Shown: piece after piece, positions 8,724-13,133 of the stretch
Numbering within the stretch: position 1 is the stretch's first letter
How the letters are laid out: each line of letters opens with the position of its first letter
IMG/VR virus record: IMGVR_UViG_3300033463_000001
Span: 32,001-96,000 of that record
Origin: a virus
Taxonomy: Duplodnaviria; Heunggongvirae; Uroviricota; Caudoviricetes
Reading direction: 5' to 3' (one strand)
DNA length: 64,000 nt
The notes under the pieces: generated by a model
Seen by the model: only the letters and a program-made list of their open reading frames with translations
What the model was told of the DNA's origin: nothing
Database searches by the model: none
Program-made: the position numbers and the translations under genes

Positions 8724-8727
8724 GTGT

Positions 8728-9015
8728 AATATAAAATAAGGGTGTGCTGTTACGCCAAAGCCCTCCCGTAAGTCCTACCAGAAGTGGGTTCATAACCCCG
8801 CCGTACTGCCAACGTACCATTCTCTTGAGGGTGGACTGATTACCCCATTATGGACGGCAGACCATTGAATTACCAATGTCATGTTGTGGATGTCTCCCTT
8901 ACAGTCAATAACACTCTGGGCTATTAACTCCCAGTTGCCTAAGGCTCATAGGGCACTTTCTGCACACTCCTTAGAAGATGGCTGCTTCCAGGCCAACTTT
9001 CCCTTATTTTATATT
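8728..9015 (-). ncRNA. 23S rRNA H43-H44 (L11-binding, GTPase-associated centre) mimic with 210-nt insertion
   Basis: GUUGGCCUGGAAGCAGCCAUCUUCUAAGGAGU...GCGUAACAGCACAC closed by a perfect 15-bp terminal helix. Confidence 0.8.
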
Positions 9016-9017
9016 TG

Positions 9018-9161: not shown

Positions 9162-9626
9162 TTACTCAATAAATGGGAACTCATCTACTACCGTTGCCTC
9201 TTTTACCTTGTTGGGTTGCTCCCGATTTGTAAACCGTCGGTTCACCGAGAACGTGAGGCCTGTTCCAATTTCTTTAACATATCCCTGCACTAAAATATCG
9301 TATGTTCCGGATGCTGCGTTTGCACTGAATCGACTTGCGAGTGAATCGTTAACCGCCTTCATTGCAGCAATCTCTTTCGCATTACCTTTTTCCAACACTT
9401 CCTGTTGCCAGGATACCTGTTGACTATTGAACGGGATGGTATCACCGAGCTTGAGAGCCAGAGTTGCCGTACCGTCCATGGAATACGAACCTTCGGGGAA
9501 TACCACTTCGAACTCGCCGTCACCATCACCAGTGATAGCAACGTTATACGCCAGCCCGAATTGGGTAGACTTACACGATGTTAATGTCAGCGCCGCACAG
9601 AGCAGCATGAAAAGAAACTTCTTCAT
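9162..9626 (-). CDS. lipoprotein
   Basis: MKKFLFMLLCAALTLTSC lipobox. Confidence 0.8.
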   Translation of the reverse strand: MKKFLFMLLCAALTLTSCKSTQFGLAYNVAITGDGDGEFEVVFPEGSYSMDGTATLALKLGDTIPFNSQQVSWQQEVLEKGNAKEIAAMKAVNDSLASRFSANAASGTYDILVQGYVKEIGTGLTFSVNRRFTNREQPNKVKEATVVDEFPFIE

Positions 9627-9737: not shown

Positions 9738-9774
9738 ATATGTAGTCTCTCAAAGAGCTATTAGTTTCAAAAAA

Positions 9775-9925
9775 CCTCTTGGTTGTGTGTAGCGTTGATG
9801 AAAAAATTAATAAAAACATCAACTTAGACACGAGGTCGTATAACACACATCCCAAGTAGGAACTACGAAAGGGAACGTAGCTGGCTGTGATTATTGTGAT
9901 GCCTCATTCACGCATTTTCTTCAGT
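9775..9925. ncRNA. candidate structured RNA between tRNAs
   Basis: cttgg..tgtgtgt/acacaca..ccaag, gttgatg/catcaac and ctacg/cgtag stems. Confidence 0.35.
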
Positions 9926-9929
9926 TGCG

Positions 9930-10003
9930 AGCCTCCAGCCGGCTTCGAACCAGCGACCTGCTGATTACAAATCAGCCGCTCTGACCAACTGAGCTATGGA
10001 GGC
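9930..10003 (-). tRNA. tRNA-Thr(TGT)
   Basis: gctga-TT TGT AA-tcagc. Confidence 0.92.
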
Positions 10004-10009
10004 ATAAAA

Positions 10010-11200
10010 ACAAAGACTTCTTGACTACCGTGCACGTAGAGTCTTTGCACCTTGCCTATGGTCTACTATGTCCTGACCTACACAAGTCGGTAAAGTACAA
10101 TCCAAACCCGACCACAGCCAGACTGGCGCTATCATCTGAAACCACAACCTCAAGAAAGTTGGGAAAACGGCTCCAGAAGCTCTTGGTGAAGTGTCTAATA
10201 CGCGATAAGTGCTGTACTTTACGGCAATAACACGCACGAGTAAAAATAACACTACACCTCAAACATATCCGGCCATATAGGAGACCGGTACCCTCCGCAT
10301 CGGGTGTTAAGTCGCTGCGGCTCCTAGATTATCTCGACTAGGCTCTAGGCTGCCATGTCTCATCCGGGTCGGTACGAATTGTGAAGCCCCAGTGGGTGTT
10401 GACAGAGCATGCTATCGAGATAGATGCTGACGAGTCGTCACCCGGATGAAATAGGATTGACTGATTGAGTTCAGTCAGTCTATAAGAACCGATGTATGCG
10501 GCCTCTCGCTGCTTTGCGGAAAGGAGGTGGTGCACAAGCCAGACGGAGACGGCGGCCACACCGGTGTTAAATACAAACTATCGTACTGCGTCTTACGGAC
10601 TGGTGAAACTGAAGATTTCATTCAGATATGCCCTCGCGCAATGGCTATATGCTTCGTCGCCTGCGTCCGGGTTTGTCACTGGTCGACATGAAGAAACGAA
10701 TCTCAACATGCCCCATTGGATAATGGTTTACACCGCGTGCGGTTCTACTCACCTGTTGCGTTATTCTCACCCTGTTTTATTCTGCAAATTAGTATCACTA
10801 TATCTACAGGATTGCTCTACGTCCATCAGGAAGCTCCATTGAGCGCCTACCGGGAAACCGGTTAGATGGGGTTACGGAGAGGCAAGGTTCAGCCCCGTGC
10901 GGGTTCTGCCCGCCAGCGGGTTCTACCCGCGAATGATACACTGAACGTGATAGTCTGTAAAGGAGTGTGGGGCGGCGCGGCTTTCGATAGCGAAGCCAGT
11001 GTGCGTAACTATTGAAACAAAGCGCCGCCACCACGGAACCGACTGGTGGGAAAATGATTGATTGGTAAGTATGGGCACGCGCCCGAATGGCACGTGGGAA
11101 AGTGTGGAGCCCGGAGCATGGTGCCGCGATAGAATAGCAGCGAGGCGCCCCTTAGGTCTCCTGGAAATCCAGTCGGTTGGAAATTAGTCTAAGGTACAAA
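10010..11200 (+). ncRNA. large highly structured ncRNA candidate (GOLLD/ROOL-like class or new)
   Basis: no credible ORF; many 8-10 bp long-range helices; G.U pairs and GAAA loops favour + strand. Confidence 0.6.
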
Positions 11201-11219
11201 TTTCAAAGAACGTTTTTAG

Positions 11220-11292
11220 TGGACACAGGTGGGATTCGAACCCCTCTGTCACAGTGCAAATGTGACGTGCTAGCCGTTACACTACCCGGCCC
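11220..11292 (-). tRNA. tRNA-Ala(TGC) with atypical acceptor and T stems
   Basis: tcaca-TT TGC AC-tgtga, G3.U70, A73; 8 nt precede U8. Confidence 0.72.
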
Positions 11293-11296
11293 AGAG

Positions 11297-11635
11297 TTGA
11301 CACAATCCCAGGTTACCCCAGGCTTCCTACTAAGAAAATCTTTTCAGAACCACATCGTGTCATTGTAGTGCCCGCAGATTTCGCTCTGGAGGTCTCGGCG
11401 CCATATTCATGGAGTTGAGCGGTTGGGCGGTAGCCAGCCCCATCTCTGTTCGGGTTTGAACAGCACACTCAGCATGTTGTGCTACAACCGCATGTAAGGG
11501 ATTTCGCGGACGGTAAATGCCGGTACCAAGTTAATTGTTATTGTCTTGATAGGAACCGTGCTTGGGTAGCCAGACCGTCGCCCTTTGCGTTTTTATGGTC
11601 TGACGTAAGTTACAAGCCTCTATGCGTTACCCCTG
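11297..11635 (+). ncRNA. candidate structured RNA
   Basis: gcggttg/caaccgc, ctgttc/gaacag, cagacc/ggtctg, tgacac/gtgtca stems; no ORF. Confidence 0.4.
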
Positions 11636-11813
11636 TGGTCTATAAATATGCGTTACATATCAAAAACCATCACTAATATAGTACTTTTTTTTCATATACG
11701 CAACAATTTCGTTAATTTTTTTGCATTTTTTTTATTTTTTATGTCTGCTGAGGCTCCATGTACTAAATTAAGTACAAGCACCCCCGTGTGTGCGCAGGCT
11801 GTGCGACGCGTGT

Positions 11814-12503: not shown

Positions 12504-12763
12504 TTCTTCTTCTTTCTGAGGTAATAAGGATTAAACGTTGTTCGGTACTCAAGTTCCATGGCCATCTGTTTGCTGTAGCCCTTCTCTTCCATATCGTATT
12601 CGGCGATATCGAGGAAGGCCGCGAACTGTCCGTCATCCATCTTCAGGACTCTAGGTAGACCCATCTCTTTGTTTAGCTCTGAGCGAGATGTCTTGATGGT
12701 ACCATGGCAGGATGTGAATACTGCATCCGGGTCTACTTGTACTCTACTCCTCGTCCTGCTCAT
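12500..12763 (-). CDS. hypothetical protein
   Basis: operon overlap. Confidence 0.7.
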   Translation of the reverse strand: MSRTRSRVQVDPDAVFTSCHGTIKTSRSELNKEMGLPRVLKMDDGQFAAFLDIAEYDMEEKGYSKQMAMELEYRTTFNPYYLRKKKK

Positions 12764-13133
12764 TGTTCTCTGGGATTAATTGAACGTTGGTGTATTCAAC
12801 CTCGCGTACTAAGACGGATTCCTGGTAGAAGGTGTGGCAGATAGTGCGGGCGAGTTTATCCACTGAAGGACCTTTGGTGAAGACCAAGTCGATAGTGTAA
12901 GACTCCTCTTCGTATACCTGACCGGAGTCTGAGCGGTAGAGGCCGGTTCCCTTGGTGAGAGTCATGCCGTCGATTCCACAGGACTCAAGCATCTTATGGA
13001 GAAGCGGCTTGAAGTGGCGCTTGTTCCAGCGAGTCTGCTTGCGCTGCTTATACCAGTTCTTGAACGGGTTCTTGTCAAGCTGGATGGCGTTTACATCCAG
13101 AGAGAAGGTGACGAGTGCGTGCATGTGTTCCAT
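12744..13133 (-). CDS. DUF3574-like small alpha/beta protein
   Basis: DGMTLTKGTGLYR...EES...FYQESVLV pattern. Confidence 0.55.
   Translation of the reverse strand: MEHMHALVTFSLDVNAIQLDKNPFKNWYKQRKQTRWNKRHFKPLLHKMLESCGIDGMTLTKGTGLYRSDSGQVYEEESYTIDLVFTKGPSVDKLARTICHTFYQESVLVREVEYTNVQLIPENNEQDEE

What the first reader, a model, noticed from the sequence alone, without database searches (positions are those of the whole stretch)
10010..11200. ~1.2-kb ornate non-coding RNA encoded antisense to the tRNA operon
Seen: no credible ORF and many long helices: gtaaagtaca(10090)/tgtactttac(10213); tatctcga(10330)/tcgagata(10415) crossing tcatccgggt(10360)/acccggatga(10440), a pseudoknot; gattgactga/tcagtcagtc; ggcggcgc(10971)/gcgccgcc(11022); aaccgactgg(11037)/ccagtcggtt(11169) crossed by ccttag/ctaagg; twin hairpins gcgggttctRcccgc. 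G.U wobbles and GAAA loops fit the + strand, opposite the flanking tRNAs. Established: GOLLD and ROOL are large ornate RNAs found near phage tRNA genes. Inference: a member of that class or one or more new RNAs.
Basis: partly seen in the sequence, partly recalled or inferred. Interest (0 to 1): 0.78.

Follow-up and report, generated by a model that had tools for sequence, protein, structure and literature searches.

The report
Orphan large RNA between phage tRNAs
A gene-free 1.2-kb stretch between two tRNA genes of a giant gut-type phage is conserved and most likely makes a large folded RNA of no known family, read from the same strand as the tRNAs rather than the opposite one as first proposed, and one of its loops copies the tail of the host's 16S ribosomal RNA; its job is untested.

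Summary
The named helices and pseudoknots are all present. Three perfect 10-bp helices exceed chance (P=0.001). The stretch is non-coding and diverges about 2% between strains, against 8-10% at synonymous sites in four of the six strains, so it is a real constrained element.

The antisense claim is probably wrong. The minus strand, sense to the tRNAs, folds better (z -4.8 against -1.05). Strain variants keep minus-strand pairs as G-U. A host-type promoter and an rRNA-operon boxA point into it on minus, and no such promoter exists on plus. Loop composition of 10870-11200 still looks plus-like, so I put minus at about 80%.

There is no Rfam match and no homologue beyond about 97%-identical strains, so covariation is untested. 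The genome is a 327-kb T4-like phage, probably of Bacteroidota.

Best reading: a GOLLD/ROOL-like ornate RNA (or a few RNAs) cut from the tRNA-operon transcript. A long hairpin displays an 11-nt copy of the host 16S anti-Shine-Dalgarno tail (functional at about 30%).

The scan noted similar orphan RNAs and anti-SD loops in other phages, but not this sequence. Expression was not tested.

The parts
10004..11194 (-). Candidate large structured non-coding RNA (about 1.19 kb), or a run of 2-3 RNAs, filling the tRNA-Ala to tRNA-Thr spacer
11672..11703 (-). Bacteroidota sigma-A-type promoter (-33/-7 variant), likely start of the tRNA operon
   Evidence: 15 such sites on minus and none on plus in window 1-32000; inference
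11221..11291 (-). tRNA-Ala(TGC), 5' neighbour; replaced by a different tRNA-Ala sequence in L004 and L138 while the spacer stays
11194..11211 (-). rRNA-operon-type boxA with its downstream extension; the extended form is unique in the genome
   Evidence: matches the site in Bacteroidales 16S-23S spacers, after tRNA-Ala where that tRNA is present
11037..11194 (-). Domain 1: 6-bp hairpin (11194-11189/11155-11150) whose loop pairs 10 bp with 11046-11037 (pseudoknot 1); 8-bp hairpin 11096-11076
   Evidence: strand ambiguous by loop composition
10899..11034 (-). Domain 2: G+C helix 11034-11022/10978-10967 and twin hairpins; one twin is cleanly deleted in three strains
10488..10565 (-). Long irregular hairpin (about 30 bp) capped by a 14-nt loop
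   Evidence: three G-U pairs on minus, one turned to G-C in four strains
10519..10529 (-). 11-nt copy of the host 16S rRNA 3' tail (anti-Shine-Dalgarno) in that loop; the only such 11-mer in the genome
10323..10451 (-). 12-bp helix 10451-10440/10369-10358 crossed by an 8-9 bp loop-loop pairing 10422-10414/10338-10330 (pseudoknot 2)
10085..10222 (-). 11-bp pairing 10222-10212/10100-10090 into the loop of hairpin 10113-10085 (pseudoknot 3)
10005..10048 (-). 3'-terminal hairpin followed by a U-tract, abutting tRNA-Thr
   Evidence: terminal pair varies G-U/G-C between strains
9929..10003 (-). tRNA-Thr(TGT), 3' neighbour

Best explanation
The stretch encodes a large, multi-domain structured RNA on the minus strand. 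Step 1 (inferred, about 80%): host RNA polymerase starts near 11670 and, helped by host Nus factors loading at the rRNA-type boxA, reads through tRNA-Ala, this spacer and tRNA-Thr. Step 2 (inferred from established tRNA processing): cutting after tRNA-Ala and RNase P cutting at tRNA-Thr, or termination at the 3' hairpin and U-tract, free an RNA of about 1.19 kb. Step 3 (helices shown in the sequence, fold predicted): it folds into modules locked by three 8-11 bp loop pairings, the contact type that builds GOLLD and ROOL assemblies. Step 4 (mechanism I favour, about 35%): it is an abundant protein-free scaffold or decoy acting on the host translation machinery during infection. Its most specific candidate effector is the exposed anti-Shine-Dalgarno loop (functional about 30%), which could pair with the few SD-led messages (host rpsR, about 25 small phage genes) or occupy the bS21/bS18/bS6 pocket.
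For: Constraint: 1.7-2.0% divergence over the element in the four strains covering 1100 nt or more (about 1% over 10004-10909), against 8-10% at fourfold sites in four of six strains; the other two have under 100 such sites. Non-coding. Folding z -4.8 minus, -1.05 plus; minus lower in five of six domains and equal in the sixth. Variants keep 10 and break 6 predicted pairs on minus, keep 4 and break 10 on plus; 28 transitions are less destabilising than random on minus (P=0.05) but not on plus (P=0.56). Promoter and boxA point in on minus. One twin hairpin is deleted as a unit. The anti-SD 11-mer is unique in the genome and sits in a predicted tip loop; this 11-mer arises in 0.03% of shuffles. 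25 of 426 phage genes have SD-like sites against 2.3% background, peaking 12 nt before the start; three of five Bacteroidales rpsR genes have one (PMC9976891). A sense-strand 23S look-alike lies 1 kb downstream in the same operon.
Against: No compensatory change in 321 predicted pairs, since only near-identical strains were found. Unpaired-base composition of 10870-11200 resembles the antisense strand of control rRNAs if read on minus. The middle part, 10480-10870, folds no better than shuffles. Some conserved rRNA 11-mer turns up in 18% of shuffles, and the 10-nt core occurs in related phages no more often than its control. No long-range helix beyond chance was found to tie the domains into one molecule. 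SD-gene clustering is weak (P=0.035).
Confidence: 0.45

Rival explanations
1. The spacer holds two or three independent smaller RNAs on minus (for example 11037-11194, 10899-11034, 10004-10570), cut apart after transcription, each a separate decoy or regulator.
For: All well-supported helices span under 150 nt; the middle folds weakly; divergence differs between parts, about 4.5% against 1%; the operon holds other separate RNAs.
Against: No internal tRNA or promoter marks a boundary, apart from one bare -7-like word at 10267; the weakly folding middle is as conserved as second codon positions.
Confidence: 0.25
2. One reading: the RNA, or at least 10870-11200, is made from the plus strand, antisense to the tRNA operon; the loop at 10519-10529 would then be an extended SD that grips host 16S rRNA.
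For: Purine-rich, A/G-rich unpaired bases on plus in 10870-11200 resemble true rRNA sense strands; G-U on plus in the 10454 hairpin and the 11150 helix; a GAAA loop at 10854.
Against: Plus folds near shuffle level overall; no plus-strand host-type promoter in 1-32000; the majority allele puts an A-C mismatch in the 10971/11022 helix on plus; the anti-SD hairpin has three mismatches on plus that are G-U on minus.
Confidence: 0.15
3. A derived self-splicing intron, ribozyme or mobile-element remnant that has lost its ORF.
For: Group-I-like R and S words near 10956, 10805 and 10027; a hammerhead-like core on plus at 10427; these phages carry tRNA insertions and a TnpB insertion in a neighbouring RNA.
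Against: No Rfam intron or ribozyme match at E<=10; no interrupted gene; no P9 after the 10027 word and no stem I for the hammerhead; single copy in the genome; strong constraint argues against decay.
Confidence: 0.08
4. A non-functional spacer, recently acquired or homogenised by recombination, whose helices are chance.
For: Absent from all more distant phages searched; short helices not enriched.
Against: Low divergence holds in every strain, even where the adjacent tRNA-Ala has been swapped; z -4.8; three 10-bp helices P=0.001.
Confidence: 0.07

Closest known systems
GOLLD RNA (Rfam RF02032 from memory; bioRxiv 10.1101/2024.12.08.627333)
   Same: Large, pseudoknotted, in a phage tRNA island directly after a tRNA; loop-loop pairings of the kind that build its 14-mer cage
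   Different: No covariance-model match; about 1.19 kb against 'many members exceeding 800 nt'; multimer formation unknown
ROOL RNA (RF03087; PMC5737381)
   Same: Near phage tRNAs, three pseudoknots, first found in rumen data
   Different: Twice the 581-nt mean length; no model match
OLE RNA (bioRxiv 10.1101/2024.12.08.627333)
   Same: Large ornate RNA proposed to sequester ribosomal protein bS21, a parallel to the anti-SD loop idea
   Different: Chromosomal RNA of Bacillota with protein partners (own knowledge); no model match
C-rich anti-SD small RNAs such as S. aureus RNAIII and RsaE/RoxS (own knowledge)
   Same: Pyrimidine-rich single-stranded loops able to pair with ribosome-binding sites; nine UUCC words on minus and no GGAA
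   Different: Phage-encoded, much larger, and in a host group whose ribosomes normally ignore SD sites (PMC7797042, PMC9976891)
Bacterial rRNA operon spacer (tRNA-Ala, boxA, 23S)
   Same: tRNA-Ala(TGC) followed by a host-type boxA and then a long structured RNA
   Different: The RNA has no significant similarity to host 16S or 23S by profile or gapped alignment

Membership tests
GOLLD | Match to the Rfam covariance model (conserved 3' domain) | tested here: not met
   nothing in the stretch at E<=10
GOLLD | Location beside tRNA genes in a phage | tested here: met
GOLLD/ROOL | Ornate fold supported by covariation | tested here: inconclusive
   only near-identical strains, no two-sided changes; one-sided G-U changes only
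GOLLD/ROOL | RNA-only multimeric cage | not testable with these tools
   needs SEC, mass photometry or cryo-EM
ROOL | Match to the Rfam model; length near 580 nt | tested here: not met
   spacer is 1217 nt
OLE, RNase P, SRP, 6S | Match to the Rfam models | tested here: not met
   RNase P P4 word absent
tmRNA (standard or permuted) | tRNA-like domain with T-loop and tag frame | tested here: not met
   the same scans do find permuted tmRNAs in related phages
Group I intron | Model match, P7 core followed by P9, and an interrupted host gene | tested here: not met
   isolated R/S-like words only
Group II intron | Domain V/VI model match and interrupted gene | tested here: not met
Hammerhead ribozyme | Core flanked by stems I, II and III | tested here: not met
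   core-like word at 10427 (+) lacks an adjacent stem I (sequence); no Rfam match
rRNA-derived fragment | Significant similarity to host 16S or 23S | tested here: not met
   the neighbouring 8724-9016 element passes as positive control
Anti-SD regulatory RNA | Exposed anti-SD loop | tested here: met
   (predicted structure only)
Anti-SD regulatory RNA | Loop conserved across homologues and shown to act on target messages | not testable with these tools
   no distant homologue found; candidate targets exist

The most novel reading that the evidence does not exclude
The phage runs its tRNA cluster as a mock rRNA operon, with host antitermination and tRNA punctuation, to mass-produce ribosome-mimicking RNAs. 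This 1.2-kb RNA would be a self-assembling scaffold that displays a copy of the 16S anti-Shine-Dalgarno tail, next to a separate 23S GTPase-centre mimic, and would re-tune host translation initiation by pairing with SD-led messages or by binding bS21/bS18.
Probability: 0.2. Interest if true: 0.85.

Novelty: new variant of a known kind. Interest (0 to 1): 0.55.

Why it matters
Bacterial and phage non-coding RNAs above 800 nt are very few, and no function is known for GOLLD or ROOL. A 1.2-kb member of a new family would be among the largest, and it can be made in vitro and imaged directly. The anti-SD loop gives a specific, mutable handle on function in a host group whose ribosomes hide their own anti-SD tail. 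The value is limited for now by the lack of distant homologues and of expression data.

Tried and rejected
Homologue searches that found nothing beyond near-identical strains: blastn of phage and plasmid records; exact patterns in viral, metagenome and genome collections (the few hits were chance); 16 terminase relatives and 2 records sharing the neighbouring RNA; nhmmer of 200-nt pieces against 1.1 Mb of held loci and against loci reached through the neighbouring 154-aa protein; about 400 genomes of the Bacteroidales; a covariance model of pseudoknot 2 on 22 related records. These tools may leave out the nearest records, and exact patterns miss covarying relatives. Whole-length nhmmer runs were unreliable for long models and were repeated in pieces.

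A collinear chain of four 8-9 nt words of 23S helices 68-70 on the plus strand looked significant at one word size but failed a gapped-alignment test with shuffles (P 0.37-0.75): rejected. The 116-aa ORF 10492-10842 (+) has non-coding codon use and no PHROG match: rejected. No bS21 gene was found in the genome, which is rated 93% complete.

Full report
Setting. The window lies in a 327,393-base virus record with a T4-like large terminase. Its closest other terminases are 72%, 63% and 61% identical. Genes mostly lack Shine-Dalgarno sites and have A-rich leaders, and 15 promoters of the Bacteroidota -33/-7 type face the minus strand in window 1-32000 with none on plus, so the host is probably a Bacteroidota bacterium (inference). 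A rumen origin is my inference from sample names and was not verified. The finding fills the spacer between tRNA-Ala(TGC) at 11221-11291 and tRNA-Thr(TGT) at 9929-10003, both on minus, in a co-oriented cluster of about 20 tRNAs.

Observation. All named helices are present and both named pseudoknots are real crossings; a third crossing involves the 10090/10213 helix. Three perfect 10-bp helices within 250 nt are unlikely by chance (P=0.001; none of 269 tiled genome windows has three), whereas 6-8 bp helices are not enriched. All ORFs in the spacer have non-coding codon use, gene callers leave the spacer empty in most strains, and strains carry 1-nt and 16-nt indels in it. Six related strains differ from the window by about 2% over the element and about 1% over 10004-10909, against 8-10% at fourfold-degenerate sites of nearby genes in the four strains with enough sites. 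The element is therefore under purifying selection without coding for protein.

Strand. Whole-element folding gives z -4.8 on minus and -1.05 on plus. Minus is lower in five of six domains and equal in the sixth; in control RNAs the sense strand was lower in 12 of 17 pieces. Strain substitutions keep 10 and break 6 predicted pairs on minus, and keep 4 and break 10 on plus. Observed transitions are milder than random ones on minus only (P=0.05 against 0.56). A promoter at 11703-11672 and a boxA at 11211-11194 point into the element on minus; the boxA with its extension matches the one in Bacteroidales 16S-23S spacers and is unique in the genome. The 3' end on minus is a hairpin with a U-tract abutting tRNA-Thr. 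Against this, the unpaired bases of 10870-11200 are C/U-rich on minus and A/G-rich on plus, the pattern that control rRNAs show for antisense and sense respectively, and two helices have G-U on plus. Each test is modest on its own. I put the minus strand at about 80% and leave 15% for a plus-strand RNA over at least that part.

Family. Rfam gives nothing in the spacer at E<=10, so it is not GOLLD, ROOL, OLE, RNase P, tmRNA or a catalogued intron. Related phages do carry permuted tmRNAs that the same scan detects. No homologue was found outside near-identical strains in any collection or related record. The strain alignment has no two-sided change in 321 predicted pairs, so the fold rests on thermodynamics and one-sided G-U changes. 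No long-range helix beyond chance links the domains, so one RNA versus several is open.

A functional handle. A roughly 30-bp irregular hairpin (10565-10488) ends in a 14-nt loop whose last 11 bases equal the 3' tail of Bacteroidales 16S rRNA; the 11-mer occurs once in the genome and in 0.03% of shuffles. The caution is that some conserved rRNA 11-mer appears in 18% of shuffles and that related phages hold the 10-nt core no more often than its control. Bacteroidia ribosomes sequester this tail in a bS21/bS18/bS6 pocket, and strong SD sites are largely confined to some ribosomal protein genes, rpsR in Bacteroidales (PMC7797042, PMC9976891); three of five sampled rpsR leaders can pair with the loop at -9 to -13 kcal/mol. 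Following a lead from earlier scan notes on other phages, I found 25 of 426 phage genes with SD-like sites against 2.3% background, peaking 12 nt before the start and weakly clustered near genome positions 151-157 kb (P=0.035). Targets therefore exist, but pairing in vivo is not shown. A separate element 1 kb downstream (8724-9016) does resemble the 23S GTPase centre significantly, which raises the prior for rRNA mimicry in this operon. A similar claim for 23S helices 68-70 on the plus strand of the finding failed testing.

How it most likely works. Shown: a constrained, non-coding, well-folding spacer with three long loop pairings. Inferred: transcription with the tRNAs under host antitermination; release by tRNA-processing nucleases; folding into pseudoknotted modules that may pair within or between molecules, as kissing loops do in GOLLD and ROOL cages (bioRxiv 10.1101/2024.12.08.627333); action as a scaffold or decoy on host translation, with the anti-SD loop as the best candidate effector. 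I give about 0.75 to a functional minus-strand RNA or RNAs, 0.45 to the single ornate RNA reading, and about 0.3 to a functional anti-SD loop.

Verdict. A real orphan RNA element of the large ornate kind, not a member of any catalogued family, most likely sense to the tRNA operon. The scan has noted comparable orphan RNAs and anti-SD loops in other jumbo phages, but no look-alike of this sequence in another genome. Interest 0.55.

Noticed in passing
window 8724-9016 (-): RNA that rebuilds the 23S rRNA GTPase-associated centre around a 210-nt insert; significant against host 23S and conserved, sense to the tRNAs, in distant phages (L124/L154, L146, L155, L286). No Rfam match.
   Followed up: partly
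L286:2962-4923 (+): The same element is split by about 1.8 kb holding a 546-aa TnpB-family ORF (PF07282): either an IS605-type insertion or an intron-like element carrying TnpB.
   Followed up: partly
window 11292-11670 (-): About 370 nt of non-coding sequence between the promoter and tRNA-Ala, almost invariant between strains (0.3-0.8%) yet folding no better than shuffles; loop composition favours minus. Probably another RNA.
   Followed up: partly
window 9738-9928 (-): 190-nt structured spacer between tRNA-Thr and tRNA-Met (z -3.8 on minus) ending in a second boxA-like word at 9750-9758.
   Followed up: no
L003:1163-1234 and 1498-1600; also L007, L008, L010, L011: Strain-variable insertions of about 71 nt in the tRNA-Thr anticodon loop (L003) and about 101 nt in that of tRNA-Met; the latter contains a tRNA-like sequence. 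Its start resembles an insert in tRNA-Arg of L288, and L288 has many repeated purine-loop hairpins in its tRNA cluster.
   Followed up: no
window 11221-11291 versus L004 and L138: The tRNA-Ala(TGC) gene exists as two very different sequences at the same site while both flanks stay nearly identical; the window's version is about 80% identical to tRNA-Ala of crAss001-like phages.
   Followed up: no
window 9162-9626 (-): 154-aa probable lipoprotein (signal peptide with conserved Cys) inside the tRNA cluster; a family of at least 77 clusters with no Pfam or PHROG match, often beside phage tRNAs.
   Followed up: partly
genome positions about 149-158 kb and 252-261 kb: Blocks of small genes in which a minority carry SD-like sites, unusual for a Bacteroidota phage.
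   Followed up: partly
L126:9916-10314 and L127:10972-11286: Related jumbo phages carry permuted tmRNA genes in their tRNA clusters; none was found in this genome.
   Followed up: no
window 12744-13133 (-): 129-aa ORF with weak S-adenosylmethionine-lyase-like and PHROG 2226 matches, a possible anti-restriction protein.
   Followed up: no
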